A DNA stretch of 64,000 bases from Eledone cirrhosa (Eukaryota): positions 167,772,001-167,836,000 of the forward strand of contig OZ024742.1 of assembly GCA_964016885.1 (NCBI GenBank), read 5' to 3'. The position numbers and the translations under genes are program-made. The notes under the pieces were generated by a model that was given only the letters and a program-made list of their open reading frames with translations, had not been told where the DNA came from and made no database searches. This document shows, one piece after another, positions 1 to 64,000 of the stretch. Position 1 is the first letter of the stretch, and every line of letters starts with the position of its first letter.

Positions 1-363
1 GTAAAAAAAATCAGAGGGAGATAATTTGTAAAAAAATCAGGGGGAGATAATTTGTAAAAAAAAAATCAGGGGGAGATAATTTGTAAAAAAAATCAGGGGG
101 AGATAATTTGTAAAAAAAAATCAGGGGTAGATAATTTGTAAAAAAAAATCAGGGGGAGATAATTTGTAAAAAAAAATCAGGGGGAGATAATTTGTAAAAA
201 AAATCAAGGGGAGATAATTTCCAGCCGTCCAAGGAGAGATAATTTTAAAAAAAAATCAGGCGGAGATAATTTGTAAAAAAAATCAAGGGGAGATAATTTG
301 TAAAAAAAAATCAGGGGGAGATAATTTGTAAAAAAAATCAAGGGGAGATAATTTCCAGCCGTC

Positions 364-480
364 CAAGGGAAGATAATTTCCAGCACTCCAAGGGGCTATA
401 ATTTCCAGTGTCCAAGGGGAGATAATTTCCAGCCAGCGAAGGGGAGATAATTTTTTTTAAAAAATCAGGGGGAGATATGT
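364..480 (+). repeat. Variant cassette Y, first instance: GGGAAGATAA..C(C/A)CTCC / GGGGCTATAA..CAG(CG/TG/CA)TCC / ..CCAGCCAGCGAAGGGG / TnAm tract
   Basis: The same ordered variant monomers recur at about 1685, 1860, 3230, 3890, 4630, 5335, 6100, 7635, 9130 and throughout the window. Confidence 0.9.
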
Positions 481-515
481 AAAAAAAATCAGAGGGAGAT
501 AATTTCTAAAAAAAA

Positions 516-885
516 TCAAAGGGAGATAATTTCCAGCCGTCCAAAGAGAGATAATTTCTAGCCGTCCAAGGGGAGATAATTTCCAGCCAAGGGAAGATAA
601 TTTCCAGCCGTCCAAGGGGAGATAATTATTTAAAAAATCAGGTGGAGATAATTTGTAAAAAAAATCAGGGGGAGATAATTTGTAAAAACAAAATCAAGGG
701 CAGATAATTTCCAGCTGTCCAAGGGGAGATAATTTCCAGCCGTGCAAGGGGAGATAATTTCCAGCCGTCCAAGGGGAGATAATTTCCATCCTTCCAAGGG
801 GAGATAATCTCCAGCCGTCCAAGGGGAGATAATTTCCCGCCAGCCAAGGGAAGATAATTTTTAAAAAAATCAGGCGGAGATTGTA
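516..885 (+). repeat. Variant cassette Z, first instance: CAAAGGGAG / CCAAAGAGAG..CTAG / 21-bp short monomer / CAGGTGGAG / AAAAACAAAATCAAGGGCAG / CTGTCC / CCGTGCAAG / CCATCCTTCC / CCCGCCAGCC / GGCGGAGATTGT
   Basis: It recurs in the same order near 7785, 11730, 17935, 24560, 31360, 36740, 40890, 43985, 57570 and 59480. It underlies the repeated 60-aa 'MAGGKLSP...KDGNY' ORFs. Confidence 0.9.
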
Positions 886-1113
886 AAAAAAATCAGGGGG
901 AGATAATTTGTAAAAAAATCAGGGGGAGATAATTTGTAAAAAAAAAATCAGGGGAGATAATTTGTAAAAAAAAATCAGGGGGAGATAATTTGTAAAAAAA
1001 AAATCAGGGGGAGATAAATTGTAAAAAAAAATCAGGGGGAGATAATTTGTAAAAAAAAATCAAGGGGAGATAATTTGTAAAAAAAATCAGGGGGAGATAA
1101 TTAGTAAAAAAAT

Positions 1114-1340
1114 CAAGGGGAGATAATTTCCAGCCGTCCAAGGGGAGGTAATATCTAGCCGTCCAAGGGGAGATAATTTCCAGCCGTCCAAGGGGAGATA
1201 ATTTCCAGCCGTCCAAGGGCAGATAATATCCAGCCGTCCAAGTAGACATATTTTCCAGCCGTCCAAGAAGAGGTAATTTCTAGCCGTCCAAGGGGAGATA
1301 AATTCCAGCCTCCAAGGGGAGATAATTTCCAGCCAGCCAA
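1114..1340 (+). repeat. Variant cassette X, first instance: nine type-A monomers including GGAGGTAATATCTAG, GG(T/C)AGATAATATCC, AG(T/G)AGACA(TA)TTTTCC, GAGGTAATTTCTAG, GATAAATTCCAGCCTCC and CCAGCCAGCC
   Basis: It recurs with ends at 2237, 2915, 9531, 13429, 16364, 19657, 22491, 26281, 28125, 35842, 37773, 40094, 41922, 43220, 48571, 50446, 51770, 55341, 60307 and 61857. These are the ORF ends 'MAGWKLSPLGGWNL'. Confidence 0.92.
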
Positions 1341-4300
1341 GGGGAGATAATTTGTAAAAAAATCAGGGGGAGATAATTTGTAAAAAAAATCAGGGGGAGA
1401 TGATTTGTAAAAAAAAATCAGGGGGAGATAATTTGTAAAAAAAATCAGGGGGAGATAATTTGTAAAAAAAAATCAGGGGGTGATAATTTGTAAAAAAAAA
1501 TCAGGGGGAGATAATTTGTAAAAAAAAATCAGGGGGAGATAATTTGTAAAAAAAATCAAGGGGAGATAATTTCCAGCCGTCCAAGGGGAGATAATTTCCA
1601 GCCGTCCAAGGGGAGGTAATATCTAGCCGTCCAAGGGGAGATAATTTCCAGCCGTCCAAGAGGAGATAATTTCCAGCCGTCCAAGGGAAGATAATTTCAA
1701 GCCCTCCAAGGGGCTATAATTTCCAGTGTCCAAGGGGAGATAATTTCCAGCCAGCGAAGGGGAGATAATTTTTTTTTAAAAATCAGGGGGAGATTTGTAA
1801 AAAAAATCAGGGGGAGATAATTTGTAAAAAAAATCAAGGGGAGATAATTTCCAGCCGTCGAAGGGAAGATAATTTCCAGCCCTCCAAGGGGCTATAATTT
1901 CCAGCGTCCAAGGGGAGATAATTTCCAGCCAGCGAAGGGGAGATAATTTTTTAAAAAAAATCATTGGGAGATTTGTAAAAAAAATCAGGGAGAGATAATT
2001 TGTAAAAAAAATCAAGGGGAGATAATTTCCAGCCGTCCAAGGGGAGGTAATATCTAGCCGTCCAAGGGGAGATAATTTCCAGCCGTCCAAGGGGAGATAA
2101 TTTCCAGCCGTCCAAGGGTAGATAATATCCAGCCGTCCAAGTAGACATTTTCCAGCCGTCCAAGGAGAGGTAATTTCTAGCCGTCCAAGGGGAGATAAAT
2201 TCCAGCCTCCAAGGGGAGATAATTTCCAGCCAGCCAAGGGGAGATAATTTGTAAAAAAATCAGGGGGAGATAATTTGTAAAAAAAATCAGGGGGAGATAA
2301 TTTGTAAAAAAAATCAGGGGGAGATAATTTGTAAAAAAAAATCAGGGGGAGATAATTTGTAAAAAAAAATCAGGGGGAGATAATTTGTAAAAAAAATCAA
2401 GGGGAGATAATTTCCAGCCGTCCAAGGGGAGATAATTTTCAGCCGTCCAAGGGGAGATAATTTCCAGCCGTCCAAGGGGAGATAATTTCCAGCCGTCCAA
2501 GGGGAGATAATTTCCAGCCGTCCAAGGGGAGATAGTTTTTTTAAAAAAATCAGGCGGAGATAATTTGTAAAAAAAAAATCAGGGGGAGATAATTTGTAAA
2601 AAAAAATCAGGGGGAGATAATTTGTAAAAAAAAATCAAGGGGAGATAATTTGTAAAAAAAATCAGGGGGAGATAATTAGTAAAAAAATCAAGGGGAGATA
2701 ATTTCCAGCCGTCCAAGGGGAGGTAATATCTAGCCGTCCAAGGGGAGATAATTTCCAGCCGTCCAAGGGGAGATAATTTCCAGCCGTCCAAGGGTAGATA
2801 ATATCCAGCCGTCCAAGTAGACATATTTTCCAGCCGTCCAAGGAGAGGTAATTTCTAGCCGTCCAAGGGGAGATAAATTCCAGCCTCCAAGGGGAGATAA
2901 TTTCCAGCCAGCCAAGGGGAGATAATTTGTAAAAAAATCAGGGGGAGATAATTTGTAAAAAAAATCAGGGGGAGATAATTTGTAAAAAAAATCAGGGGGA
3001 GATAATTTGTAAAAAAAAATCAGGGGGAGATAATTTGTAAAAAAAAATCAGGGGGAGATAATTTGTAAAAAAAAATCAGGGGGAGATAATTTGTAAAAAA
3101 AATCAAGGGGAGATAATTTCCAGCCGTCCAAGGGGAGATAATTTCCAGCCGTCCAAGGGGAGGTAATATCTAGCCGTCCAAGGGGAGATAATTTCCAGCC
3201 GTCCAAGAGGAGATAATTTCCAGCCGTCCAAGGGAAGATAATTTCAAGCCCTCCAAGGGGCTATAATTTCCAGTGTCCAAGGGGAGATAATTTCCAGCCA
3301 GCGAAGGGGAGATAATTTTTTTTTAAAAATCAGGGGGAGATTTGTAAAAAAAATCAGGGGGAGATAATTTGTAAAAAAAATCAAGGGGAGATAATTTCCA
3401 GCCGTCGAAGGGGAGATAATTTCCAGCCAGCGAAGGGGAGATAATTTTTTTTTAAAAATCAGGGGGAGATTTGTAAAAAAAATCAGGGGGAGATAATTTG
3501 TAAAAAAAAATCAGGGGGAGATAATTTGTAAAAAAAATCAATTGGAGATAATTTCCAGCCGTCCAAGTAGAGATAATTTAAAAAAAAAATCAGGCGGAGA
3601 TAATTTGTAAAAAAAAATCAGGGGGAGATAATTTGTAAAAAAAAATCAGGGGTAGATAATTTGTAAAAAAAAATCAGGGGGATGATAATTTGTAAAAAAA
3701 TCAGGGGGAGATAATTTGTAAAAAAAATCAAGGGGAGATAATTTCCAGCCGTCCAAGGAGAGATAATTTTAAAAAAAAATCAGGCGGAGATAATTTGTAA
3801 AAAAAAATCAGGGGGAGATAATTTGTAAAAAAAAATCAGGGGGAGATAATTTGTAAAAAAAATCAAGGGGAGATAATTTCCAGCCGTCGAAGGGAAGATA
3901 ATTTCCAGCCCTCCAAGGGGCTATAATTTCCAGCGTCCAAGGGGAGATAATTTCCAGCCAGCGAAGGGGAGATAATTTTTTTTAAAAAATCATTGGGAGA
4001 TTTGTAAAAAAAATCAGGGGGAGATAATTTGTAAAAAAAATCAAGGGGAGATAATTTCCAGCCGTCCAAGGGGAGGTAATATCTAGCCGTCCAAGGGGAG
4101 ATAATTTCCAGCCGTCCAAGGGGAGATAATTTCCAGCCGTCCAAGGGTAGATAATATCCAGCCGTCCAAGTAGACATTTTCCAGCCGTCCAAGGAGAGGT
4201 AATTTCTAGCCGTCCAAGGGGAGATAAATTCCAGCCTCCAAGGGGAGATAATTTCCCGCCAGCCAAGGGAAGATAATTTTAAAAAAAATCAGGCGGAGAT

Positions 4301-7300
4301 TGTAAAAAAAATCAGGGGGAGATAATTTGTAAAAAAATCAGGGGGAGATAATTTGTAAAAAAAAAATCAGGGGGAGATAATTTGTAAAAAAAAATCAGGG
4401 GGAGATAATTTGTAAAAAAATCAAGGGGAGATAATATGCAGCTGTCCAAGGGGAGATAATTTTCAGCCGTCCAAGGGGAGATAATTTCCCGCCAGCCAAG
4501 GGAAGATAATATTTAAAAAAATCAGGGGGAGATAATTTGTAAAAAAAAATCAGGGGGAGATAATTTGTAAAAAAAATCAGGGGGAGATAATTTGTAAAAA
4601 AAATCAAGGGGAGATAATTTCCAGCCGTCCAAGGGAAGATAATTTCCAGCCCTCCAAGGGGCTATAATTTCCAACGTCCAAGGGGAGATAATTTCCAGCC
4701 AGCGAAGGGGAGATAATTTTTTTAAAAAAATCACTGGGAGATTTGTAAAAAAAATCAGGGGGAGATAATTTGTAAAAAAAATCAAGGGGAGATAATTTCC
4801 AGCCGTCCAAAGAGAGATAATTTCTAGCCGTCCAAGGGGAGATAATTCCCAGCCAAGGGGAGATAATTTCCAGCCGTCCAAGGGGAGATAATTTTTAAAA
4901 AATCAGGTGGAGATAATTTGTAAAAAAAATCAGTGGAAGATAATTTGTAAAAACAAAATCAAGGGCAGATAATTTCCAGCCGTCCAAGGGGAGATAATTT
5001 CCCGCCAGCCAAGGTAGGATAATATTTAAAAAAATCAGGCGGAGATAATTTGTAAAAAAAATCAGGGGGAGATAATTTGTGAAAAAATCAGGGGGAGATA
5101 ATTTGTAAAAGAAAAATCAGGGTCAGATAATTTGTAAAAAAAATCAGGGGGAGATAATTTGTAAAAAAAAATCAGGGGTAGATAATTTGTAAAAAAAAAT
5201 CAGGGGGAGATAATTTGTAAAAAAAATCAAGAGGAGATAATTTCCAGCCGTCCAAGGAGAGATAATTTAAAAAAAAAATCAGGCGGAGATAATTTGTAAA
5301 AAAATCAAGGGGAGATAATTTCCAGCCGTCCAAGGGAAGATAATTTCCAGCCCTCCAAGGGGCTATAATTTCCAGTGTCCAAGGGGAGATAATTTCCAGC
5401 CAGCGAAGGGGAGATAATTTTTTTAAAAAAATCAGGGGGAGATTTGTAAAAAAAATCAGAGGGAGATAATTTGTAAAAAAAATCAAAGGGAGATAATTTC
5501 CAGCCGTCCAAAGAGAGATAATTTCTAGCCGTCCAAGGGGAGATAATTTCCAGCCAAGGGGAGATAATTTCCAGCCGTGCAAGGGGAGATAATTTCCAGC
5601 CGTCGAAGGGGAGATAATTTCCATCCTTCCAAGGGGAGATAATTTCCAGCTGTCCAAGGGGAGATAATTTCCCGCCAGCCAAGGGAAGATAATTTTTTAA
5701 AAAATCAGGCGGAGATTGTAAAAAAATTCAGGGGGAGATAATTTGTAAAAAAATCAGGGGCAGATAATTTGTAAAAAAAAAATCAGGGGGAGATAATTTG
5801 TAAAAAAAAATCAGGGGGAGATAATTTGTAAAAAAAAATCAGGGGGAGATAATTTGTAAAAAAGATTAAGGGGAGATAATTTGCAGCCGTCCAAGGGGAG
5901 ATAATTTTCAGCCGTCCAAGGAGAGGTAATTTCTAGCCGTCCAAGGGGAGATAATTTCCAGCCGTCCAAGGGGAGATAATTTCCAGTCGTCCAAGGGAAG
6001 ATAATTTTTTTAAAAAAATCAGGCGGAGATAATTTGTAAAAAAAAATCAGGGGGAGATAATTTGTAAAAATTCAAGGGGAGATAATTTCCAGCCGTCCAA
6101 GGGAAGATAATTTCCAGCCCTCCAAGGGGCTATAATTTCCAGCGTCCAAGGGGAGATAATTTCCAGCCAGCGAGGGGGAGATAATTTTTTTTAAAAAAAT
6201 CAGGGGGAGATAATTTGTAAAAAAAATCAGGGGGAGATAATTTGTAAATAAAATCAAGGGGAGATAATTTCCAGCCGTCCAAAGAGAGATAATTTCTAGC
6301 CGTCCAAGGGGAGATAATTTCCAGCCAAGGGGAGATAATTTCCAGCCGTCCAAGGGGAGATAATTTTTTAAAAAATCAGGTGGAGATAATTTGTAAAAAT
6401 AATCAGGGGAAGATAATTTGTAAAAACAAAATCAAGGGCAGATAATTTCCAGCCGTCCAAGGGGAGATAATTTCCAGCAGTGCAAGGGGAGATAATTTCC
6501 AGCCGTCCAAGGGGAGATAATTTCCATCCTTCCAAGGGGAGATAATTTCCAGCCGTCCAAGGGGAGATAATTTCCCGCCAGCCAAGGAGAGATAATATTT
6601 AAAAAAATCAGGCGGAGATAATTTGTAAAAAAAATCAGGGGGAGATAATTTGTAAAAAAATCAGGGGGAGATAATTTGTAAAAAAAATCAGGGGGAGATA
6701 ATTTGTAAAAAGAAAATCAGGGGTAGATAATTTGTAAAAAAAAATCAGGGGGAGATAATTTGTAAAAAAAAAATCAGGGGGAGATAATTTGTAAAAAAAT
6801 CAAGGGGAGATAATTTGCAGCCGTCCAAGGGGAGATAATTTTCAGCCGTCCAAGGAGAGGTAATTTCTAGCCGTCCAAGGGGAGATAATTTCCAGCCGTC
6901 CAAGGGGAGATAATTTCCAGCCGTCCAAGGGGAGATAATTTTTAAAAAGAAATCAGGCGGAGATAATTTGTAAACAAAAATCAGGGGGAGATAATTTGTA
7001 AAAAAAAATCAGGGGGAGATAATTTGTAAAAAAAATCAGGGGGAAATAATTTGTAAAAAAAATCAAGCGGAGATAATTTCCAGCCGTCCAAGGGGAGGTA
7101 ATATCTAGCCATCCAAGGGGAGATAATTTCCAGCCGTCCAAGGGGAGATAATTTCCAGCCGTCCAAGGGGAGATAATTTCCAGCCGTCCAAGGAGACATA
7201 TTTTCCAGCCGTCCAAGGAGAGGTAATATCTAGCCGTACAAGGGGAGATAAATTCCAGCATCCAAGGGGAGATAATTTCCAGCCAGCCAAGGGGAGATAA

Positions 7301-10300
7301 TTTGTAAAAAAATCAGGGGGAGATAATTTGTAAAAAAAATCAGGGGGAGATAATTTGTAAAAAAAATCAGAGGGAGATAATTTGTAAAAAAAAATCAGGG
7401 GGAGATAATTTGTAAAAAAAATCAAGGGGAGATAATTTCCAGCCGTCCAAGGGGAGATAATTTGCAGCCGTCCAAGGGGAGATAATTTCCAGCCGTCCAA
7501 GGGGAGATAAGTTGTAAAAAAAAATCAGGCGGAGATAATTTGTAAAAAAAATCAAGGGGAGATAATTTGTAAAAAAAAATCAGGGGGAGATAATTTGTAA
7601 AAAAAATCAAGGGGAGATAATTTCCAGCCGTCCAAGGGAAGATAATTTCCAGCACTCCAACGGCCTATAATTTGCAGTGTCCAAGGGGAGATAATTTCCA
7701 GCCAGCGAAGGGGAGATAATTTTTTTAAAAAAATCAGGGGGAGATATGTAAAAAAAATCAGAGGGAGATAATTTCTAAAAAAAATCAAAGGGAGATAATT
7801 TCCAGCCGTCCAAAGAGAGATAATTTCTAGCCGTCCAAGGGGAGATAATTTCCAGCCAAGGGGAGATAATTTCCAGCCGTCCAAGGGGAGATAATTATTT
7901 AAAAAATCAGGTGGAGATAATTTGTAAAAAAAATAAGGGGGAGATAATTTGTAAAAACAAAATCAAGGGCAGATAATTTCCAGCTGTCCAAGGGGAGATA
8001 ATTTCCAGCCGTGCAAGGGGAGATAATTTCCAGCCGTCCAAGGGGAGATAATTTCCATCCTTCCAAGGGGAGATAATTTCCAGCCGTCCAAGGGGAGATA
8101 ATTTCCCGCCAGCCAAGGAAAGATAATTTTTTAAAAAATCAGGCGGAGATTGTAAAAAAAATCAGGGGGAGATAATTTGTAAAAAAATCAGGAGGAGATA
8201 ATTTGTAAAAAAATCAAGGGGAGATAATTTCCAGCTGTCCAAGGGGAGGTAATATCTAGCCGTCCAAGGGGAGATAATTTTCAGCCGTCCAAGGGGAGAT
8301 AATTTCCAGCCGTCCAAGGGTAGATAATATCCAGCCGTCCAAGGAGACATATTTTCCAGCCGTCCAAGGAGAGGTAATTTCTAGCCGTCCAAGTGGAGAT
8401 AAATTATAGCCTCCAAGGGGAGATAATTTCCAGCCAGCCAAGGGGAGATAATTTGTAAAAAAATCAGGGGGAGATAATTTGTAAAAAAAATCAGGGGGAG
8501 ATAATTTGTAAAAAAAAATCAGGGGGAGATAATTTGTAAAAAAAATCAGGGGGAGATAATTTGTAAAAAAATCAAGGGGAGATAATTTCCAGCCGTCCAA
8601 GGAGAGATAATTTAAAAAAAAAATCAGGCGGAGATAATTTGTAAAAAAAAATCAGGGGGAGATAATTTGTAAAAATAAATCAGGGGGAGATAATTTATAA
8701 AAAAAATCAAGGGGAGATAATTTCCAGCCGTCCAAGGGGAGATAATTTTCAGCCGTCCAAGGGGAGATAATTTCCAGCCGTCCAAGGGGAGATAATTTTA
8801 AAAAAAAATCAGGCGGAGATAATTTGTAAAAAAAATCAAGGGTAGATAATTTGCAACCGTCCAAGGGGACATAATTTTCAGTCGTCCAAGGAGAGGTAAT
8901 TTCTAGCCGTACAAGGGGAGATAATTTCCAGCCGTCCAAGGGGAGATAATTTCCAGCCGTCCAAGGGGAGATAATTTTTTTTTAAAAATCAGGCGGAGAT
9001 AATTTGTAAAAAAAAAATCAGGGGGAGATAATTTGTAAAAAAAAATCAGGGGGAGATAATTTGTAAAAAAAAATCAGGGGGAGATAATTTGTAAAAAAAA
9101 TCAAGGGGAGATAATTTCCAGCCGTCCAAGGGAAGATAATTTCCAGCCCTCCAAGGGGCTATAATTTCCAGCGTCCAAGGGGAGATAATTTCCAGCCAGC
9201 GAAGGGGAGATAATTGTTTTAAAAAAATCATTGGGAGATTTGTAAAAAAAATCAGGGGGAGATAATTAATAAAAAAAATCAAGGGGAGATAATTCCCAGC
9301 CGTCCAAGGGGAGGTAATATCTAGCCGTCCAAGGGGAGATAATTTCCAGCCGTCCAAGGGGAGATAATTTCCAGCCGTCCAAGGGTAGATAATATCCAGC
9401 CGTCCAAGGGTAGATAATATCCAGCCGTCCAAGGAGACATATTTTCCAGCCGTCCAAGGAGAGGTAATTTCTAGCCGTCCAAGGGGAGATAAATTCCAGC
9501 CTCCAAGGGGAGATAATTTCCAGCCAGCCAAGGGGAGATAATTTGTAAAAAAATCAGGGGGAGATAATTTGTAAAATAAATCAGGGGTAGATAATTTGTA
9601 AAAAAAAATCAGGGGGAGATAATTTGTAAAAAAAAATCAGGGGGAGATAATTTGTAAAAAAAATCAAGGGGAGATAATTTCCAGCCGTCCAAGGAGAGAT
9701 AATTTTAAAAAAAAATCAGGCGGAGATAATTTGTAAAAAAAAATCAGGGGGAGATAATTTGTAAAAAAAAATCAGGGGGAGATAATTTGTAAAAAAAATC
9801 AAGGGGAGATAATTTCCAGCCGTCCAAGGGGAGATAATTTCCAGCCGTCCAAGGGGAAATAATTTTTTTAAAAAAATCAGGCGGAGATAATTTGTAAAAA
9901 AAATCAGGGGGAGATAATTTGTAAAAAAAAATCAGGGGGAGATAATTTGTAAAAAAAAATCAGGGAGAGATAATTTCCAGCCGTCCAAGGTAAGATAATT
10001 TCCAGCCCTCCAAGGGGCTATAATTTCCAGCATCCAAGGGGAGATAATTTCCAGCCGTCCAAGGGTAGATAATATCCAGCCGTCCAAGTAGACATATTTT
10101 CCAGCCGTCCAAGGAGAGGTAATTTCTAGCCGTCCAAGGGGAGATAAATTACAGCCTCCAAGGGGAGATAATTTCCAGCCGTCCAAGGGGAGATAATTTA
10201 AAAAAAAAAACAGGCGAAGATAATTTGTAAAAAAAAAATCAGGGGGAGATAATTTGTAAAAAAAAATCAGGGGGAGATAATTTGTAAAAAAAAATCAGGG

Positions 10301-13300
10301 GGAGGTAATTTGTGAAAAAAAATCAAGGGGAGATAATTTCCAGCCGTCCAAGGGAAGATAATTTCCAGCCCTCCAAGGGGCTATAATTTCCAGCGTCCAA
10401 GGGGAGATAATTTCCAGCCAGCGAAGGGGAGATAATTTTTTTTTTTTAAATCAGGGGGACATAATTTGTAAAAAAAATCAGGGGGAGATAATTTGTAAAA
10501 AAAATCAGGGGGAGATAATTTGTAAAAAAAATCAAGGGTAGATAATTTGTAAAAAAAAATCAAGGGGAGATAATTTCCAGCCGTCCAAGGGGAGATAATT
10601 TTCAGCCGTCCAAGGGGAGATAATTTCCCGCCAGCCAAGGAAAGATAATATTTAAAAAAATCAGGCGGAGATAATTTGTAAAAAAAATCAGGGGGAGATA
10701 ATTTGTAAAAAAATCAGGGGGAGATAATTTGTAAAAAAAAATCAGGGGGAGATAATTTGTAAAAAAAATCAGGGGGAGATAATTTGTAAAAAAAAATCAG
10801 GGGGAGATAATTTGTAAAAAAAAATCAGGGGGAGATAATTTGTAAAAAAAATCAATTGGAGATAATTTCCAGCCGTCCAAGGGGAGATAATTTTCAGCCG
10901 TCCAAGGAGAGGTAATTTCTAGACGTCCAAGGGGAGATAATTTCCAGCCGTCCAAGGGGAGATAATTTCCAGCCGTCCAAGGGTAGATAATATCCAGCCG
11001 TCCAAGGAGACATATTTTCCAGCTTTCCAAGGAGAGGTAATTTCTAGCCGTCCAAGGGGAGATAAATTCCAGCCTCCAAGGGGAGATAATTTCCAGCCAG
11101 CCAAGGGGAGATAATTTGTAAAAAAATCAGGGGGAGATAATTTGTAAAAAAAAATCAGGGGCAGATAATTTGTAAAAAAAATCAGGGGGAGATAATTTGT
11201 AAAAAAAATCAGGGGGAGATAATTTGTAAAAAAAATCAAGGGGAGATAATTTCCAGCCGTCCAAGGGGAGATAATTTTCAGCCGTCCAAGGGGAGATAAT
11301 TTCCCGCCAGCCAAGGGAAGATAATATTTAAAAAATGAGGCGGAGATAATTTGTAAAAAAAATCAGGGGGAGATAATTTGTAAAAAAATCAGGGGGAGAT
11401 AATTTGTAAAAAAAAAATCAGGGAGAGATAATTTGTAAAAAAAATCAGGGGGAGATAATTTGTAAAAAAAAATCAGGGGTAGATAATTTGTAAAAAAAAA
11501 TCAGGGGGAGATAATTTGTAAAAAAAATCAGGGGGAGATAATTTGTAAAAAAAATCAAGGGGAGATAATTTCCAGCCGTCCAAGGGAAGATAATTTCAAG
11601 CCCTCCAAGGGGCTATAATTTCCAGTGTCCAAGGGGAGATAATTTCCAGCCAGCGAAGGGGAGATAATTTTTTTTTTTAAATCAGGGGGAGATTTGTACA
11701 AAAAATCAGGGGGAGATAATTTGTAAAAAAAATCAAAGGGAGATAATTTCCAGCCGTCCAAAGAGAGATAATTTCTAGCCGTCCAAGGGGAGATAATTTC
11801 GAGCCAAGGGGAGATAATTTCCAGCCGTCCAAGGGGAGATAATTTTTTAAAAAATCAGGTGGAGATAATTTGTAAAAAAAATCAGGGGGAGATAATTTGT
11901 AAAAACAAAATCAAGGGCAGATAATTTCCAGCTGTCCAAGGGGAGATAATTTCCAGCCGTGCAAGGGGAGATAATTTCCAGCCGTCCAAGGGGAGATAAT
12001 TTCCATCCTTCCAAGGGGAGATAATTTCCAGCCGTCCAAGGGGAGATAATTTCCCGCCAGCCAAGGGAAGATAATTTTTTAAAAAATCAGGCGGAGATTG
12101 TAAAAAAAATCAGGGGGAGATAATTTGTAAAAAAATCAGGGGGAGATAATTTCCAGCTGTCCAAGGGGAGGTAATATCTAGCCGTCCAAGGGGAGATAAT
12201 TTCCAGCCGTCCAAGGGGAGATAAATTCCATCCGTCCAAGGGTAGATAATATCCAGCCGTCCAAGGAGACATATTTTCCAGCCGTCCAAGGAGAGGTAAT
12301 TTCTAGCCGTCCAAGTGGAGATAAATTCCAGACTCCAAGGGGAGATAATTTCCAGCCAGCCAAGGGGAGATAATTTGTAAAAAAATCAGGGGGAGATAAT
12401 TTGTAAAAAAAATCAGGGGGAGATAATTTGTAAAAAAAAATCAGGGAGAGATAATTTGTAAAAAAAATCAGGGGGAGATAATTTGTAAAAAAAATCAAGG
12501 GGAGATAATTTCCAGCCGTCCAAGGAGAGATAATTTTAAAAAAAAATCAGGCGGAGATAATTTGTAAAAAAAAATCAGGGGGAGATAATTTGTAAAAAAA
12601 AATCAGGGGGAGATAATTTGTAAAAAAAATCAAGGGGAGATAATTTCCAGCCGTCCAAGGGGAGATAATTTTCAGCCGTCCAAGGGGAGATAATTTCCAG
12701 CCGTCCAAGGGGAGATAATTTAAAAAAAAAATCAGGCGGAGATAATTTGTAAAAAAAATCAAGGGGAGATAATTTGCAACCGTCCAAGGGGACATAATTT
12801 TCAGTCGTCCAAGGAGAGGTAATTTCTAGCCGTACAAGGGGAGATAATTTCCAGCCGTCCAAGGGGAGATAATTTCCAGCCGTCCAAGGGGAGATAATTT
12901 TTTTTTAAAAATCAGGCGGAGATAATTTGTAAAAAAAAAATCAGGGGGAGATAATTTGTAAAAAAAAATCAGGGGGAGATAATTTGTAAAAAAAAATCAG
13001 GGGGAGATAATTTGTAAAAAAAATCAAGGGGAGATAATTTCCAGCCGTCCAAGGGAAGATAATTTCCAGCCCTCCAAGGGGCTATAATTTCCAGCGTCCA
13101 AGGGGAGATAATTTCCAGCCAGCGAAGGGGAGATAATTGTTTTAAAAAAATCATTGGGAGATTTGTAAAAAAAATCAGGGGGAGATAATTAATAAAAAAA
13201 ATCAAGGGGAGATAATTTCCAGCCGTCCAAGGGGAGGTAATATCTAGCCGTCCAAGGGGAGATAATTTCCAGCCGTCCAAGGGGAGATAATTTCCAGCCG

Positions 13301-13739
13301 TCCAAGGGTAGATAATATCCAGCCGTCCAAGGAGACATATTTTCCAGCCGTCCTAGGAGAGGTAATTTCTAGCCGTCCAAGGGGAGATAAATTCCAGCCT
13401 CCAAGGGGAGATAATTTCCAGCCAGCCAAGGGGAGATAATTTGTAAAAAAATCAGGGGGAGATAATTTGTAAAAAAAATCAGGGGTAGATAATTTGTAAA
13501 AAAAAATCAGGGGGAGATAATTTGTAAAAAAAAATCAGGGGGAGATAATTTGTAAAAAAAATCAAGGGGAGATAATTTCCAGCCGTCCAAGGAGAGATAA
13601 TTTTAAAAAAAAATCAGGCGGAGATAATTTGTAAAAAAAAATCAGGGGGAGATAATTTGTAAAAAAAAATCAGGGGGAGATAATTTGTAAAAAAAATCAA
13701 GGGGAGATAATTTCCAGCCGTCCAAGGGGAGATAATTTC

Positions 13740-53700: not shown

Positions 53701-56700
53701 GAGATAATTTCCAGCCGTCCAAGGGGAGATAATTTCCCGCCAGCGAAGAGAAGATAATTTTTTAAAAAATCAGGCGGAGATTGTAAAAAAAATCAGGGGG
53801 AGATAATTTGTAAAAAAATCAGGGGGAGATAATTTGTAAAAAAATCAAGGGGAGATAATTTCCAGCTGTCCAAGGGTAGGTAATATCTAGCCGTCCAAGG
53901 GGAGATAATTTCCAGCCGTCCAAGGGGAGATAATTTCCAGCCGTCCAAGGGTAGATAATATCCAGCCGTCCAAGGAGACATATTTTCCAGCCCTCCAAGG
54001 AGAGGTAATTTCTAGCCGTCCAAGTGGAGATAAATTCCAGCCTCCAAGGGGAGATAATTTCCAGCCAGCCAAGGGGAGATAATTTGTAAAAAAATCAGGG
54101 GGAGATAATTTGTAAAAAAAATCAGGGGGAGATAATTTGTACAAAAAATCAGGGGTAGATAATTTGTAAAAAAAAATCAGGGGGAGATAATTTGTAAAAA
54201 GAATCAAGGGGAGATAATTTGCAGCCGTCCAAGGGGAGATAATTTCCCGCCAGCCAAGGGAAGATAATATTTAAAAAAATCAGGCGGATATAATTTGTAA
54301 AAAAAATCAGGGGGAGATAATTTGTAAAAAAATCAGGGGGAGATAATTTGTAAAAAAAAAATCAGGGGGAGATTTGTAAAAAAAATCAGGGGGAGATAAT
54401 TTGTAAAAAAAAATCAGGGGTAGATAATTTGTAAAAAAAAATCAGGAGTAGATAATTTGTAAAAAAAAATCAGGGGGAGATAATTTGTAAAAAAAATCTA
54501 GGGGAGATAATTTGCAGCCGTCCAAGGGGAGATAATTTTCAGTCGTCCAAGGAGAGGTAATTTCTAGCCGTCCAAGGGGAGATAATTTCCAGCCGTCCAA
54601 GGGGAGATAATTTCCAGCCGTCCAAGGGGAGATAATTTTTTTTTAAAAATCAGGCGGAGATAATTTGTAAAAAAAATCAGGGGGAGATAATTTGTAAAAA
54701 AAAATCAGGGGGAGATAATTTGTAAAAAAAAATCAGGGGGAGATAATTTGTAAAAAAAATCAAGGAGAGATAATTTCCAGCCGTCCAAGGGAAGATAATT
54801 TCAAGCCCTCCAAGGGGCTATAATTTCCAGTGTCCAAGGGGAGATAATTTCCAGCCAGCGAAGGGGAGATAATTTTTTTTTAAAAATCAGGGGGAGATTT
54901 GTAAAAAAAATCAGGGGGAGATAATTTGTAAAAAAAATCAAGGGGAGATAATTTCCAGCCGTCGAAGGGAAGATAATTTCCAGCCCTCCAAGGGGCTATA
55001 ATTTCCAGCGTCCAAGGGGAGATAATTTCCAGCCAGCGAAGGGGAGATAATTTTTTAAAAAAAATCATTGGGAGATTTGTAAAAAAAATCAGGGAGAGAT
55101 AATTTGTAAAAAAAATCAAGGGGAGATAATTTCCAGCCGTCCAAGGGGAGGTAATATCTAGCCGTCCAAGGGGAGATAATTTCCAGCCGTCCAAGGGGAG
55201 ATAATTTCCAGCCGTCCAAGGGTAGATAATATCCAGCCGTCCAAGTAGACATTTTCCAGCCGTCCAAGGAGAGGTAATTTCTAGCCGTCCAAGGGGAGAT
55301 AAATTCCAGCCTCCAAGGGGAGATAATTTCCAGCCAGCCAAGGGGAGATAATTTGTAAAAAAATCAGGGGGAGATAATTTGTAAAAAAAATCAGGGGGAG
55401 ATAATTTGTAAAAAAAAATCAGGGGGAGATAATTTGTAAAAAAAAATCAGGGGGAGATAATTTGTAAAAAAAAATCAGGGGGAGATAATTTGTAAAAAAA
55501 ATCAAGGGGAGATAATTTCCAGCCGTCCAAGGGGAGATAATTTTCAGCCGTCCAAGGGGAGATAATTTCCAGCCGTCCAAGGGGAGATAATTTCCATCCC
55601 TCCAAGGGGAGATAATTTCCAGCCGTCCAAGGGGAGATAATTTCCCGCCAACCAAGGGAAGATAATTTTTAAAAAAATCAGGCGGAGATTGTAAAAAAAA
55701 TCAGGGGGAGATAATTTGTAAAAAAATCAGGGGGAGATAATTTGTAAAAAAAAAATCAGGGGGAGATAATTTGTAAAAAAAATAAGGGGGAGATAATTTG
55801 TAAAAAAAAATCAAGGGGAGATAATTTGTACAAAAAATCAGGGGTATATAATTTGTAAAAAAAAATCAGGGGGAGATAATTTGTAAAAAAAAATCAGGGG
55901 GAGATAATTTGTAAAAAAAATCAAGGGGAGATAATTTGCAGCCGTCCAAGGAGAGATAATTTTCAGCCGTCCAAGGAGAGGTAATTTCTAGCCGTCCAAG
56001 GTGAGATAATATCCAGCCGTCCAAGGGGAGATAATTTCCAGCCGTCCAAGGGGAGATAATTTTAAAAAAAAAACAGGCGAAGATAATTTGTAAAAAAAAA
56101 TCAGGGGGAGGTAATTTGTAAAAAAAATCAAGGGGAGATAATTTCCAGCCGTCCAAGGGAAGATAATTTCCAGCCCTCCAAGGGGCTATAATTTCCAGCG
56201 TCCAAGGGGAGATAATTTCCAGCCAGCGAAAGGGGAGATAATTTTTTTTTTTTTAAATCAGGGGAACATAATTTGTAAAAAAAATCAGGGGGAGATAATT
56301 TGTAAAAAAAATCAAGGGGAGATAATTTGTAAAAAAAAATCAGGGGGAGATAATTTGTAAAAAAAAATCAGGGGGAGATAATTTGTAAAAAAAATCAAGG
56401 GGAGATAATTTGTAAAAAAAAATCAAGGGGAGATAATTTCCAGCCGTCCAAGGGGAGATAATTTTCAGCCGTCCAAGGGGAGATAATTTCCCGCCAGCCA
56501 AGGAAAGATAATATTTAAAAAAATCAGGCGGAGATAATTTGTAAAAAAAATCAGGGGGAGATAATTTGTAAAAAAATCAGGGGGAGATAATTTGTAAAAA
56601 AAAAATCAGGGGTAGATAATTTGTAAAAAAAAATCAGGGGGAGATAATTTGTAAAAAAAAATCAGGGGGAGATAATTTGTAAAAAAAATCAATTGGAGAT

Positions 56701-58966
56701 AATTTCCAGCCGTCCAAGGGGAGATAATTTTCAGCCGTCCAAGGAGAGGTAATTTCTAGACGTCCAAGGGGAGAAAATTTCCAGCCGTCCAAGGGGAGAT
56801 AATTTCCAGCCGTCCAAGGGTAGATAATATCCAGCCGTCCAAGGAGACATATTTTCCAGCTTTCCAAGGAGAGGTAATTTCTATCCGTCCAAGGGGAGAT
56901 AAATTCCAGCCTCCAAGGGGAGATAATTTCCAGCCAGCCAAGGGGAGATAATTTGTAAAAAAATCAGGGGGAGATAATTTGTAAAAAAAATCAGGGGGAG
57001 ATAATTTGTAAAAAAAATCAGGGGGAGATAATTTGTAAAAAAAATCAGGGGGAGATAATTTGTAAAAAAAATCAAGGGGAGATAATTTCCAGCCGTCCAA
57101 GGGGAGATAATTTTCAGCCGTCCAAGGGGAGATAATTTCCCGCCAGCCAAGGGAAGATAATATTTAAAAAATGAGGCGGAGATAATTTGTAAAAAAAATC
57201 AGGGGGAGATAATTTGTAAAAAAATCAGGGGGAGATAATTTGTAAAAAAAAAATCAGGGGGAGATAATTTGTAAAAAAAATCAGGGGGAGATAATTTGTA
57301 AAAAAAAATCAGGGGTAGATAATTTGTAAAAAAAAATCAGGGGGAGATAATTTGTAAAAAAAATCAGGGGGAGATAATTTGTAAAAAAAATCAAGGGGAG
57401 ATAATTTCCAGCCGTCCAAGGGAAGATAATTTCAAGCCCTCCAAGGGGCTATAATTTCCAGTGTCCAAGGGGAGATAATTTCCAGCCAGCGAAGGGGAGA
57501 TAATTTTTTTTTAAAAATCAGGGGGAGATTTGTAAAAAAAATCAGGGGGAGATAATTTGTAAAAAAAATCAAAGGGAGATAATTTCCAGCCGTCCAAAGA
57601 GAGATAATTTCTAGCCGTCCAAGGGGAGATAATTTCGAGCCAAGGGGAGATAATTTCCAGCCGTCCAAGGGGAGATAATTTTTTAAAAAATCAGGTGGAG
57701 ATAATTTGTAAAAAAAATCAGGGGGAGATAATTTGTAAAAACAAAATCAAGGGCAGATAATTTCCAGCTGTCCAAGGGGAGATAATTTCCAGCCGTACAA
57801 GGGGAGATAATTTCCAGCCGTCCAAGGGGAGATAATTTCCATCCTTCCAAGGGGAGATAATTTCCAGCCGTCCAAGGGGAGATAATTTCCCGCCAGCCAA
57901 GGGAAGATAATTTTTTAAAAAATCAGGCGGAGATTGTAAAAAAAATCAGGGGGAGATAATTTGTAAAAAAAATCAAGGGGAGATAATTTCCAGCCGTCCA
58001 AGGGGAGATAATTTCCAGCCGTCCAAGGGGAGATAAATTTTTTAAAAAAAATCAGGCGGAGATAATTTGTAAAAAAAATCAGGGGGAGATAATTTGTAAA
58101 AAAAAATCAGGGGGAGATAATTTGTAAAAAAAATCAGGGGGAGATAATTTCCAGCCGTCCAAGGTAAGATAATTTCCAGTCCTCCAAGGGGCTATAATTT
58201 CCAGCATCCAAGGGGAGATAATTTCCAGCCGTCCAAGGGTAGATAATATCCAGCCGTCCAAGTAGACATATTTTCCAGCCGTCCAAGGAGAGGTAATTTC
58301 TAGCCGTCCAAGGGGAGATAAATTCCAGCCTCCAAGGGGAGATAATTTCCAGCCAGCCAAGGGGAGATAATTTGTAAAAAAATCAGGGGGAGATAATTTG
58401 TAAAAAAAATCAGGGGGAGATAATTTGTAAAAAAAAATCAGGGTGAGATAATTTGTAAAAAAAAATCAGGGGGAGATAATTTCCAGCCGTCCAAGGGGAG
58501 ATAATTATCAGCCGTCCAAGGGTAGATAATATCCAGCCGTCCAAGTAGACATTTTCCAGCCGTCCAAGGAGAGGTAATTTCTAGCCGTCCAAGGGGAGAT
58601 AAATTCCAGCCTCCAAGGGGAGATAATTTCCAGCCAGCCAAGAAGAGATAATTTGTAAAAAAAAATCAGGGGGAGATAATTTGTAAAAAAAAATCAGGGG
58701 GAGATAATTTGTAAAAAAAAATCAGGGGGAGATAATTTGTAAAAAAAATCAAGGGGAGATAATTTCCAGCCGTCCAAGGGGAGATAATTTTCAGCCGTCC
58801 AAGGGGAGATAATTTCCAGCCGTCCAAGGGGAGATAATTTCCATCCTTCCAAGGGGAGATAATTTCCAGCCTTCCAAGGGGAGATAATTTTCAGCCGTCC
58901 AAGGGGAGATGATTTCCCGCCAGCCAAGGGAAGATAATATTTTAAAAAATCAGGCGGAGATAATTT

Positions 58967-61900
58967 GTAAAAAAAATCAGGGGGAGATAATTTGTAAAAA
59001 AATCAGGGGGAGATAATTTGTAAAAAAAAAATCAGGGGGAGATAATTTGTAAAAAAAATCAGGGGGAGATAATTTGTAAAAAAAAATCAGGGGTAGATAA
59101 TTTGTAAAAAAAAATCAGGGGGAGATAATTTGTAAAAAAAAATCAGGGGGAGATGATTTGTAAAAAAAAATCAAGGGGAGATAATTTCCAGCCGTCCAAG
59201 GAGAGATAATTTTAAAAAAAAATCAGGCGGAGATAATTTGTAAAAAAAATCAAGGGGAGATAATTTGTAAAAAAAAATCAGGGGGAGATAATTTGTAAAA
59301 AAAATCAAGGGGAGATAATTTCCAGCCGTCCAAGGGAAGATAATTTCCAGCACTCCAAGGGGCTATAATTTCCAGTGTCCAAGGGGAGATAATTTCCAGC
59401 CAGCGAAGGGGAGATAATTTTTTTTAAAAAATCAGGGGGAGATATGTAAAAAAAATCAGAGGGAGATAATTTCTAAAAAAAATCAAAGGGAGATAATTTC
59501 CAGCCGTCCAAAGAGAGATAATTTCTAGCCGTCCAAGGGGAGATAATTTCCAGCCAAGGGAAGATAATTTCCAGCCGTCCAAGGGGAGATAATTATTTAA
59601 AAAATCAGGTGGAGATAATTTGTAAAAAAAATCAGGGGGAGATAATTTGTAAAAACAAAATCAAGGGCAGATAATTTCCAGCTGTCCAAGGGGAGATAAT
59701 TTCCAGCCGTGCAAGGGGAGATAATTTCCAGCCGTCCAAGGGGAGATAATTTCCATCCTTCCAAGGGGAGATAATCTCCAGCCGTCCAAGGGGAGATAAT
59801 TTCCCGCCAGCCAAGGGAAGATAATTTTTAAAAAAATCAGGCGGAGATTGTAAAAAAAATCAGGGGGAGATAATTTGTAAAAAAATCAGGGGGAGATAAT
59901 TTGTAAAAAAAAAATCAGGGGAGATAATTTGTAAAAAAAAATCAGGGGGAGATAATTTGTAAAAAAAAAATCAGGGGGAGATAATTTGTAAAAAAAAATC
60001 AGGGGGAGATAATTTGTAAAAAAAAATCAAGGGGAGATAATTTGTAAAAAAAATCAGGGGGAGATAATTAGTAAAAAAATCAAGGGGAGATAATTTCCAG
60101 CCGTCCAAGGGGAGGTATTATCTAGCCGTCCAAGGGGAGATAATTTCCAGCCGTCCAAGGGGAGATAATTTCCAGCCGTCCAAGGGCAGATAATATCCAG
60201 CCGTCCAAGTAGACATATTTTCCAGCCGTCCAAGGAGAGGTAATTTCTAGCCGTCCAAGGGGAGATAAATTCCAGCCTCCAAGGGGAGATAATTTCCAGC
60301 CAGCCAAGGGGAGATAATTTGTAAAAAAATCAGGGGGAGATAATTTGTAAAAAAAATCAGGGGGAGATGATTTGTAAAAAAAAATCAGGGGGAGATAATT
60401 TGTAAAAAAAATCAGGGGGAGATAATTTGTAAAAAAAAATCAGGGGGTGATAATTTGTAAAAAAAAATCAGGGGGAGATAATTTGTAAAAAAAAATCAGG
60501 GGGAGATAATTTGTAAAAAAAATCAAGGGGAGATAATTTCCAGCCGTCCAAGGGGAGATAATTTCCAGCCGTCCAAGGGGAGGTAATATCTAGCCGTCCA
60601 AGGGGAGATAATTTCCAGCCGTCCAAGAGGAGATAATTTCCAGCCGTCCAAGGGAAGATAATTTCAAGCCCTCCAAGGGGCTATAATTTCCAGTGTCCAA
60701 GGGGAGATAATTTCCAGCCAGCGAAGGGGAGATAATTTTTTTTTAAAAATCAGGGGGAGATTTGTAAAAAAAATCAGGGGGAGATAATTTGTAAAAAAAA
60801 TCAAGGGGAGATAAATTCCAGCCGTCGAAGGGAAGATAATTTCCAGCCCTCCAAGGGGCTATAATTTCCAGCGTCCAAGGGGAGATAATTTCCAGCCAGC
60901 GAAGGGGAGATAATTTTTTAAAAAAAATCATTGGGAGATTTGTAAAAAAAATCAGGGAGAGATAATTTGTAAAAAAAATCAAGGGGAGATAATTTCCAGC
61001 CGTCCAAGGGGAGGTAATATCTAGCCGTCCAAGGGGAGATAATTTCCAGCCGTCCAAGGGGAGATAATTTCCAGCCGTCCAAGGGTAGATAATATCCAGC
61101 CGTCCAAGTAGACATTTTCCAGCCGTCCAAGGAGAGGTAATTTCTAGCCGTCCAAGGGGAGATAAATTCCAGCCTCCAAGGGGAGATAATTTGTAAAAAA
61201 ATCAGGGGGAGATAATTTGTAAAAAAAATCAGGGGGAGATAATTTGTAAAAAAAATCAGGGGGAGATAATTTGTAAAAAAAAATCAGGGGGAGATAATTT
61301 GTAAAAAAAAATCAGGGGGAGATAATTTGTAAAAAAAATCAAGGGGAGATAATTTCCAGCCGTCCAAGGGGAGATAATTTTCAGCCGTCCAAGGGCAGAT
61401 AATTTCCAGCCGTCCAAGGGGAGATAATTTCCAGCCGTCCAAGGGGAGATAATTTCCAGCCGTCCAAGGGGAGATAGTTTTTTTAAAAAAATCAGGCGGA
61501 GATAATTTGTAAAAAAAAAATCAGGGGGAGATAATTTGTAAAAAAAAATCAGGGGGAGATAATTTGTAAAAAAAAATCAAGGGGAGATAATTTGTAAAAA
61601 AAATCAGGGGGAGATAATTAGTAAAAAAATCAAGGGGAGATAATTTCCAGCCGTCCAAGGGGAGGTAATATCTAGCCGTCCAAGGGGAGATAATTTCCAG
61701 CCGTCCAAGGGGAGATAATTTCCAGCCGTCCAAGGGTAGATAATATCCAGCCGTCCAAGTAGACATATTTTCCAGCCGTCCAAGGAGAGGTAATTTCTAG
61801 CCGTCCAAGGGGAGATAAATTCCAGCCTCCAAGGGGAGATAATTTCCAGCCAGCCAAGGGGAGATAATTTGTAAAAAAATCAGGGGGAGATAATTTGTAA

Positions 61901-64000
61901 AAAAAATCAGGGGGAGATAATTTGTAAAAAAAATCAGGGGGAGATAATTTGTAAAAAAAAATCAGGGGGAGATAATTTGTAAAAAAAAATCAGGGGGAGA
62001 TAATTTGTAAAAAAAAATCAGGGGGAGATAATTTGTAAAAAAAATCAAGGGGAGATAATTTCCAGCCGTCCAAGGGGAGATAATTTCCAGCCGTCCAAGG
62101 GGAGGTAATATCTAGCCGTCCAAGGGGAGATAATTTCCAGCCGTCCAAGAGGAGATAATTTCCAGCCGTCCAAGGGAAGATAATTTCAAGCCCTCCAAGG
62201 GGCTATAATTTCCAGTGTCCAAGGGGAGATAATTTCCAGCCAGCGAAGGGGAGATAATTTTTTTTTTAAAATCAGGGGGAGATTTGTAAAAAAAATCAGG
62301 GGGAGATAATTTGTAAAAAAAATCAAGGGGAGATAATTTCCAGCCGTCGAAGGGGAGATAATTTCCAGCCAGCGAAGGGGAGATAATTTTTTTTTAAAAA
62401 TCAGGGGGAGATTTGTAAAAAAAATCAGGGGGAGATAATTTGTAAAAAAAAATCAGGGGGAGATAATTTGTAAAAAAAATCAATTGGAGATAATTTCCAG
62501 CCGTCCAAGTAGAGATAATTTAAAAAAAAAATCAGGCGGAGATAATTTGTAAAAAAAAATCAGGGGGAGATAATTTGTAAAAAAAAATCAGGGGTAGATA
62601 ATTTGTAAAAAAAAATCAGGGGGATGATAATTTGTAAAAAAATCAGGGGGAGATAATTTGTAAAAAAAATCAAGGGGAGATAATTTCCAGCCGTCCAAGG
62701 AGAGATAATTTTAAAAAAAAATCAGGCGGAGATAATTTGTAAAAAAAAATCAGGGGGAGATAATTTGTAAAAAAAAATCAGGGGGAGATAATTTGTAAAA
62801 AAAATCAAGGGGAGATAATTTCCAGCCGTCGAAGGGAAGATAATTTCCAGCCCTCCAAGGGGCTATAATTTCCAGCGTCCAAGGGGAGATAATTTCCAGC
62901 CAGCGAAGGGGAGATAATTTTTTTTAAAAAATCATTGGGAGATTTGTAAAAAAAATCAGGGGGAGATAATTTGTAAAAAAAATCAAGGGGAGATAATTTC
63001 CAGCCGTCCAAGGGGAGGTAATATCTAGCCGTCCAAGGGGAGATAATTTCCAGCCGTCCAAGGGGAGATAATTTCCAGCCGTCCAAGGGTAGATAATATC
63101 CAGCCGTCCAAGTAGACATTTTCCAGCCGTCCAAGGAGAGGTAATTTCTAGCCGTCCAAGGGGAGATAAATTCCAGCCTCCAAGGGGAGATAATTTCCCG
63201 CCAGCCAAGGGAAGATAATTTTAAAAAAAATCAGGCGGAGATTGTAAAAAAAATCAGGGGGAGATAATTTGTAAAAAAATCAGGGGGAGATAATTTGTAA
63301 AAAAAAAATCAGGGGGAGATAATTTGTAAAAAAAAATCAGGGGGAGATAATTTGTAAAAAAATCAAGGGGAGATAATATGCAGCTGTCCAAGGGGAGATA
63401 ATTTTCAGCCGTCCAAGGGGAGATAATTTCCCGCCAGCCAAGGGAAGATAATATTTAAAAAAATCAGGGGGAGATAATTTGTAAAAAAAAATCAGGGGGA
63501 GATAATTTGTAAAAAAAATCAGGGGGAGATAATTTGTAAAAAAAATCAAGGGGAGATAATTTCCAGCCGTCCAAGGGAAGATAATTTCCAGCCCTCCAAG
63601 GGGCTATAATTTCCAACGTCCAAGGGGAGATAATTTCCAGCCAGCGAAGGGGAGATAATTTTTTTAAAAAATCACTGGGAGATTTGTAAAAAAAATCAGG
63701 GGGAGATAATTTGTAAAAAAAATCAAGGGGAGATAATTTCCAGCCGTCCAAAGAGAGATAATTTCTAGCCGTCCAAGGGGAGATAATTCCCAGCCAAGGG
63801 GAGATAATTTCCAGCCGTCCAAGGGGAGATAATTTTTAAAAAATCAGGTGGAGATAATTTGTAAAAAAAATCAGTGGAAGATAATTTGTAAATACAAAAT
63901 CAAGGGCAGATAATTTCCAGCCGTCCAAGGGGAGATAATTTCCCGCCAGCCAAGGTAGGATAATATTTAAAAAAATCAGGCGGAGATAATTTGTAAAAAA
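58967..64000 (+). repeat. Copy 2 of the segment at 1-5059, truncated by the window end
   Basis: Colinear with 1-5059. It differs by scattered substitutions and lacks one 25-bp CCAGCCAGCC monomer near 61190. Confidence 0.95.

What the first reader, a model, noticed from the sequence alone, without database searches (positions are those of the whole stretch)
1..64000. ~59 kb super-period: the window end re-enters the window start
Seen: 58967-64000 matches 1-5059, including variants I saw nowhere else. The copies are not identical. Examples: AAGAAGAGG at 1265 vs AAGGAGAGG at ~60232, GGTAATATC vs GGTATTATC at ~60115, GGGCAG at ~61393, a missing 25-bp monomer at ~61190, and T9A5 vs T10A4 at ~62258. 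Inference: this could be a very large recent higher-order repeat unit, a concatemer of a ~59 kb circle (rolling-circle amplification or eccDNA), a dispersed segmental copy, or an untrimmed circular or haplotype overlap in the assembly.
Basis: partly seen in the sequence, partly recalled or inferred. Interest (0 to 1): 0.7.

Follow-up and report, generated by a model that had tools for sequence, protein, structure and literature searches.

The report
Eroded giant duplication in mollusc satellite
The window's end does match its start, but there is no fixed 59-kb period or circle: it is one of several irregular 49–87-kb copies inside a multi-megabase satellite array of a mollusc chromosome, likely left by ordinary repeated duplication and deletion.

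Summary
Observation confirmed; interpretation only partly right. Window 1–5,059 matches 58,967–64,000 at 99.8%, with all five quoted differences. The window sits mid-contig (378.9 Mb) in a 25/27-bp satellite array of a mollusc, so an untrimmed circle is excluded. The 58.95-kb diagonal starts about 110 bp before the window and ends near 9.9 kb / 68.8 kb. The block has five full copies nearby, and the closest to the window start lie 11 and 21.5 kb upstream. The whole 59-kb stretch is nevertheless a colinear homologue of the next 48.9 kb (41.5 kb aligned, 0.25% substitutions, five net indels of 0.6–10 kb), and of an 80-kb stretch upstream. So this is an irregular macro-repeat, likely made by a large in-register tandem duplication and eroded by younger 3–11-kb duplications and deletions. 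Such long diagonals occur in 191 of 457 overlapping 64-kb windows of this array. Tandem duplications of 3.6–54 kb and graded age are common here and on another chromosome. The kind is known (human macro-repeats, Arabidopsis kilobase indels), and this scan noted it before in other satellites of this genome. Read support is untested.

The parts
1..64000 (+). Unbroken satellite of two related monomers sharing a GGAGATAATTT core: a 25-bp type and a 26-29-bp poly-A type (2,364 monomers, 295 variants in the window). The array runs at least 600 kb upstream and ends near window coordinate 121,260.
1..58966 (+). Macro-unit A: colinear homologue of unit B (58,982-107,900, 48.9 kb) and of unit Z (-107,757 to -27,705)
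1..11258 (+). Block X, copy X4 (starts about -110): third member of a local triplication (X2 at -21.5 kb, X3 at -11.3 kb). Its first 9.9 kb match X5.
58967..64000 (+). Block X, copy X5, start of unit B; the 58.95-kb diagonal continues to 68,792, and a further copy X6 begins near 107,900
9904..20034 (+). 10.15 kb present in A and absent from B, bounded by ~2.4-kb direct repeats (about 7,520-9,900 and 17,670-20,030). B carries a hybrid of the two repeats, switching between 9,706 and 9,938; a far-upstream unit (-249 kb) keeps the stretch, so B likely lost it.
16456..29703 (+). 6,624-bp tandem duplication inside A (5 substitutions in 5,634 aligned bases, one larger indel), likely younger than the A/B split
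37842..39746 (+). 996-bp tandem duplication inside A
40547..40686 (+). Site where B carries 5.1 kb more than A (B 87,134-92,344)
44353..47142 (+). 2.8 kb present in A and absent from B
54476..58966 (+). Block Y, which precedes X5 and whose homologues precede the copies at -27.7 kb, -21.5 kb and +107.9 kb

Best explanation
The window spans one copy of an irregular macro-repeat in a 25/27-bp satellite array: neighbouring stretches of 80-87, 59 and 49 kb are colinear homologues about 0.2-0.3% apart, likely made by large in-register tandem duplication through homology-directed repair or unequal exchange and then likely resized by younger 1-11-kb duplications and deletions. The 59-kb figure is only the present distance between two copies of block X, and the diagonal seems to begin at base 1 because the window starts about 110 bp inside the third copy of a local 11-kb triplication. 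Shown: homology, order, divergences, indel sizes, kept monomer register. Inferred: order and direction of events, and the repair mechanism. No function is implied.
For: A vs B: a colinear chain of exact matches covers 39,183 bp (80% of B), against 16.5-19.9 kb on average for 30 block shuffles; 41,521 bp aligned, 105 substitutions (0.253%), 37 indels of 1-3 bp, 20 of 22-210 bp, and 6 large breaks, 5 with a net length change. Chain bases against other parts of the array: 14.8-17.0 kb, against another chromosome 1.2 kb. Z, A and B are near-equidistant: 43, 46 and 55 differences in 22,238 columns over nine segments (summed, clustered columns dropped). Nested duplications are less diverged than A/B: 6,145 bp 0, 3,609 bp 0, 6,624 bp 0.09%, 10,249 bp 0.05%, 11,305 bp 0.11-0.16%. 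All 27 variable columns of five X copies fit one tree, ((X2,X3),X4),X5,X6, matching their order. Monomer register is kept: 5 of 19,342 monomer intervals are shorter than 21 bp. B's lost 10.15 kb is flanked by direct repeats and leaves a hybrid. Tandem duplications of 3.6-53.6 kb (13 chains in 721 kb of C3) and 4-20.7 kb (6 chains in 210 kb of C2) show graded divergence of 0-0.17%. The same outcome is described for human alpha satellite (10.1101/2021.07.12.452052) and measured in Arabidopsis (10.1101/2025.06.02.657473).
Against: No reads were laid, so the order of units is the assembly's. Z, A and B being equidistant fits one multi-copy burst as well as two separate duplications. Branch lengths of the X copies are uneven (2-4, 8 and 12 private changes). 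The unit sizes here (30-87 kb) are far above the 1-31 repeat units measured in wild-type Arabidopsis lines, so the mechanism is carried over by analogy. Chain-based divergence leans low because it anchors on exact matches of 100 bp or more. Polarity of the indels rests on one or two outgroup units.
Confidence: 0.8

Rival explanations
1. One amplification burst (rolling-circle or re-replication of a ~45-50-kb piece) made Z, A, B and perhaps C at once; later indels eroded them.
For: Z, A and B are near-equidistant; only 1 of 27 variable columns resolves X2-4, X5 and X6.
Against: Every other dated duplication has its own boundaries, size and age. The last copy C is more diverged (0.43-0.50%). Two duplications close in time give the same pattern.
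Confidence: 0.1
2. A and B are the two alleles of one locus placed in tandem by the assembler (false duplication).
For: 0.25% divergence with multi-kb indels is what alleles of a wild animal could show (general knowledge). No read test was made. A 44.5-kb exact repeat upstream is longer than ordinary accurate long reads (recalled), so the array path may hold errors.
Against: Five distinct versions of X and at least four homologous units exceed two alleles. No N in 721 kb. The longest exact match between A and B is 1,426 bp, so long reads can tell them apart. Substitutions outnumber homopolymer indels 105 to 37.
Confidence: 0.07
3. A fixed 59-kb higher-order repeat.
For: The 10-kb diagonal at 58.95 kb and whole-unit colinearity.
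Against: Offsets along the unit run 58.9, 48.8, 46.8, 47.2, 46.6, 51.7, 48.8 and 48.9 kb; neighbours are 48.9 and 80-87 kb; only 6 of 457 windows recur at 58-59 kb, all at this one place.
Confidence: 0.02
4. Concatemer of a 59-kb circle (eccDNA), or an untrimmed circular overlap.
For: Inside the window alone, the end re-enters the start.
Against: Mid-position in a 378.9-Mb contig. The diagonal fails about 110 bp upstream and at 9.9 kb. The copies differ by 10-kb indels.
Confidence: 0.01

Closest known systems
Macro-repeats and recent nested duplications in human alpha-satellite arrays (cen12, cenX; Altemose et al., bioRxiv 10.1101/2021.07.12.452052; passages and section 8 read)
   Same: Large repeated blocks inside one array, with younger local duplications nested in them; the paper reports eight recent duplications within ~365 kb on chr12.
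   Different: Monomers here are 25-29 bp and there is no canonical HOR. CENP-A binding and methylation are unknown. Macro-repeat sizes in that paper's supplements were not seen.
HSat2/HSat3 nested tandem repeats (same paper, section 8)
   Same: Short ancestral unit, multi-kilobase longer periods that vary along the array.
   Different: Here discrete monomers remain recognisable, and the longest periods are 30-87 kb and present in two to four copies.
Repeat-preserving kilobase indels in Arabidopsis CEN178 arrays (bioRxiv 10.1101/2025.06.02.657473; passages and section 11 read)
   Same: Whole-unit tandem duplications and deletions keeping register, attributed to homology-directed repair; long-distance similarity arises without long-range recombination in their simulations.
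   Different: Wild-type events were 1-31 units (mean insertion 1.9 kb); events inferred here reach 30-54 kb, and none was observed as a new mutation.
Large tandem duplications by unequal recombination in einkorn centromeres (PMC10447253; passages read)
   Same: Very large duplication followed by internal deletions.
   Different: About 700 kb, between retrotransposons, not inside a pure short-monomer satellite.

Membership tests
Canonical higher-order repeat (alpha-satellite type) | Fixed number of monomers per unit, repeated many times at a constant period | tested here: not met
   Units of 80-87, 59.0 and 48.9 kb; offsets shift by up to 10 kb along one unit
Canonical higher-order repeat (alpha-satellite type) | Corresponding monomers of different units far more alike than monomers within a unit | tested here: met
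   0.25% between A and B, against 295 monomer variants of two types in the window
Satellite macro-repeat with nested duplications | Tens-of-kb colinear blocks repeated within one array | tested here: met
Satellite macro-repeat with nested duplications | Younger, smaller duplications inside the blocks | tested here: met
   0-0.16% for nested pairs against 0.25% for A/B
Satellite macro-repeat with nested duplications | Arrangement confirmed on single molecules | not tested
   No reads laid; the runs listed are contigs or short reduced-representation reads
Repeat-preserving indels by homology-directed repair | Breakpoints keep monomer register and lie in homologous sequence | tested here: met
   5 of 19,342 intervals under 21 bp; two junctions read at monomer level; hybrid repeat in B
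Repeat-preserving indels by homology-directed repair | Dependence on repair genes, events seen de novo | not testable with these tools
   Needs pedigree or mutant data
Circle concatemer or untrimmed circular contig | Same unit and same junction repeated; overlap at contig ends | tested here: not met
Functional centromeric satellite | Multi-megabase array at comparable interior places on several chromosomes | tested here: inconclusive
   C3 164.0-169.0 Mb of 378.9, C2 246.7-250.5 Mb of 416.3, C4 247.4 Mb of 378.8; searches give lower bounds only
Functional centromeric satellite | CENP-A binding | not testable with these tools
   No chromatin data

The most novel reading that the evidence does not exclude
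In this mollusc a 25-bp satellite turns over in steps of 30-60 kb, over a thousand monomers at a time: the ~45-50-kb units Z, A and B came from one multi-copy burst, and the 53.6-kb and 30.0-kb pairs upstream (2 and 1 substitutions) are real and so young that such events could be caught in a pedigree.
Probability: 0.2. Interest if true: 0.45.

Novelty: new member of a known kind. Interest (0 to 1): 0.2.

Why it matters
Mostly as a correction: a long diagonal in a satellite window is the expected trace of ordinary array turnover, not a circle or a new period. The array is a clean, dateable record (no other sequence seen in 721 kb) of duplications from 1 to 54 kb in an invertebrate group whose satellites I found no paper on. 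If reads confirm the near-identical 30- and 54-kb pairs, it extends the size range of repeat-preserving events well beyond the plant measurements.

Tried and rejected
Fixed 59-kb period, circle and untrimmed overlap: rejected by the flanks. The window count (131, 69 and 38 of 457) was discarded because its chaining missed the window's own diagonal; one search repeats it with that positive control. The map by B-unique 70-mers was too sparse outside blocks X and Y. The tandem list missed known pairs through strict chaining; one search replaced it. One search measured 11 of the 13 C3 tandem chains and 5 of the 6 C2 chains, plus 6 pairs added by hand. Some per-segment values (X6, 47-51 kb, 55-59 kb) are inflated by misalignment and were not used. 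RuBisCO small subunit search: no match. Sequencing runs: 7 of 10 rows hold part of the stretch, none laid, so they are no evidence of anything; short reads and contigs could not span the copies. Paper searches for four monomer strings gave 0 papers; the octopus/satellite search listed 15 of 102 papers, none on cephalopod satellites by title. PMC8099727 (passages) added nothing specific. Earlier findings near this place: none; by sequence: two unrelated bacterial notes.
Full report
Setting. The window is G000:C3:167,772,001-167,836,000, in a contig of 378.9 Mb of a 3.0-Gb genome. The genome carries multi-domain molluscan haemocyanin genes (39 matches to PF14830) and gave no RuBisCO small-subunit match. 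Earlier scan notes call it a likely octopus; I checked only the mollusc level. All 64 kb are one + strand satellite of two monomer types with a shared core, 25 bp and 26-29 bp. The array continues for at least 600 kb upstream without an N and ends near window coordinate 121,260, where a 9-bp AT-rich satellite starts abruptly. Spot samples show the same satellite at 164.0-165.5 Mb (reverse), 166.0-167.2 Mb (forward) and 169.0 Mb (reverse) of C3, and on C2 and C4. Negative coordinates below are upstream of the window.

The observation. Fourteen monomer variants are confined, within the window, to these two blocks (median 0, maximum 6 for 66 pairs of 5-kb blocks), but all 14 also occur outside the window.

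Extent of the diagonal. 50-mer sharing at 58.95 kb is 0.77-1.0 over tiles 1-10,000, and 0.06-0.25 in the five tiles tested on either side (one search agrees by alignment score). At monomer level the shared sequence begins about four monomers before base 1. What lies upstream of it is the end of another copy of the same block, whereas what lies upstream of 58,967 is block Y. The window therefore starts just inside the third copy of a local triplication (X2 at -21.5 kb, X3 at -11.3 kb, X4 at 0). Over 5,573 shared columns X4 differs from X3 at 5, X2 at 6, X5 (+59 kb) at 11 and X6 (+107.9 kb) at 15 positions; all 27 variable columns fit the tree ((X2,X3),X4),X5,X6. The copy at 59 kb is thus not the closest relative of the window start.

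The macro-repeat. The diagonal stops, but homology does not. A colinear chain of exact matches between A (1-58,966) and B (58,967-107,900) covers 39,183 bp, 80% of B, in nine segments with offsets 58.9, 48.8, 46.8, 47.0, 47.2, 46.6, 51.7, 48.8 and 48.9 kb; shuffling A in 1.5- or 3-kb blocks (15 times each) gives 16.5 and 19.9 kb on average. Aligned: 41,521 bp, 105 substitutions (0.253%), 37 indels of 1-3 bp, 20 of 22-210 bp, mostly whole monomers, and six large breaks, five with a net length change of 0.6-10.2 kb. B is also colinear with -107,757 to -27,705 (unit Z, 80 kb; 86.7 kb up to the window start with the X copies) and with -252 to -170 kb, while beyond -260 kb the chain falls to 21-28% of B. 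Z, A and B differ at 43, 46 and 55 of 22,238 columns in nine segments (summed; clustered columns dropped). A truncated unit C (from 107.9 kb) is 0.43-0.50% from A and B.

Why the units differ in length. A holds a 6,624-bp tandem duplication (0.09%), B one of 3,609 bp (0 substitutions), and the Z/A boundary holds duplications of 6,145 bp (0), 10,249 bp (0.05%) and 11,305 bp (0.11-0.16%), all below the A/B divergence. The largest difference, A 9,904-20,034, is bounded by ~2.4-kb direct repeats. B follows the first repeat up to a shared variant at 9,706 and the second from 9,938 on, and a unit at -249 kb retains the whole stretch; I infer a deletion in B by exchange between the repeats. Only 5 of 19,342 monomer intervals are shorter than 21 bp, so breakpoints keep register, as expected of homology-directed events.

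How ordinary. In 521 kb of the array, 191 of 457 overlapping 64-kb windows hold a diagonal of 5 kb or more at an offset of 40 kb or more, and in 105 the first 5 kb recur 40-59 kb later (109 and 47 of 285 without the near-perfect pair). Thirteen tandem chains of 3.6-53.6 kb were found in 721 kb of C3 and six of 4-20.7 kb in 210 kb of C2. The 20 smaller or younger pairs measured span 0-0.17%. The most striking are outside the window: 53,569 bp with 2 substitutions and one monomer indel (44,529 bp exact), and 29,972 bp with 1 substitution. These are either very young or assembly errors; I cannot tell without reads.

Mechanism and rivals. Most likely (0.8): large in-register tandem duplication followed by smaller duplications and deletions. 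Shown are homology, order, graded divergence and register; inferred are event order, polarity and the repair pathway. One multi-copy burst (0.1) fits the equidistance of Z, A and B. False duplication of alleles (0.07) is weakened by five versions of X, at least four units, no gap, and a longest A/B exact match of 1,426 bp, but was not tested with reads. A fixed 59-kb repeat and a circle are refuted by the flanks.

Comparison with what is known. Altemose et al. (10.1101/2021.07.12.452052; passages, and section 8) describe macro-repeats and recent nested duplications in alpha satellite and locally varying nested tandem repeats in HSat2/3; its supplements, which may give macro-repeat sizes, were not seen. 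The Arabidopsis mutation-accumulation study (10.1101/2025.06.02.657473; passages, and section 11) measured repeat-preserving indels of 1-31 units and tied them to homology-directed repair. Einkorn (PMC10447253; passages) has ~700-kb centromeric duplications with later internal deletions. The structure works like these and fails the test for a canonical higher-order repeat. The monomer strings gave 0 papers, and none of the 15 titles listed for octopus and satellite terms concerns cephalopod satellites; some searches were seen as listings apart from the papers named. Earlier notes of this scan report the same pattern in other satellites of this genome; they are unchecked and were not used as support.

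Verdict. Real, well explained by known array turnover; new member of a known kind; interest 0.2.

Noticed in passing
G000:C3, window coordinates -214,672 to -107,444 (L021-L030, L059-L060): Near-perfect 53,569-bp tandem duplication: 2 substitutions, one 25-bp indel, 44,529 bp exact. Very young or an assembly error.
   Followed up: partly
G000:C3, window coordinates -300,374 to -240,431: Near-perfect 29,972-bp tandem duplication: 1 substitution, one small indel.
   Followed up: partly
L006:7,260 onward (window coordinate ~121,260) through L020: The 25/27-bp array ends abruptly and a 9-bp AT-rich satellite (17% GC) runs on for at least 140 kb, with its own 7-38-kb internal duplications.
   Followed up: partly
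L069, L070 (C3 168.2 and 168.5 Mb): A third, 11-13-bp AT-rich satellite lies between the 9-bp array and an inverted block of the 25/27-bp satellite at 169.0 Mb.
   Followed up: no
L061-L064 (C3 164.0-166.0 Mb): The 25/27-bp satellite switches strand between 165.5 and 166.0 Mb; the whole complex spans at least 5 Mb at 43-45% of the contig, and recurs on C2 and C4. Candidate centromere region, untested.
   Followed up: partly
window coordinates about -260,000: Boundary between two sub-domains of the array: upstream of it, homology to unit B falls to 21-28%.
   Followed up: partly
window coordinates 115,000-121,260 (L006): The last 6 kb of the array are more diverged and hold a further partial copy of block X (offset 113,022).
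   Followed up: no
G000:C1 173.7-173.9 Mb, C26 21.9-22.0 Mb: Haemocyanin gene clusters on two contigs; on C26 two copies in opposite orientation with the same scores.
   Followed up: no
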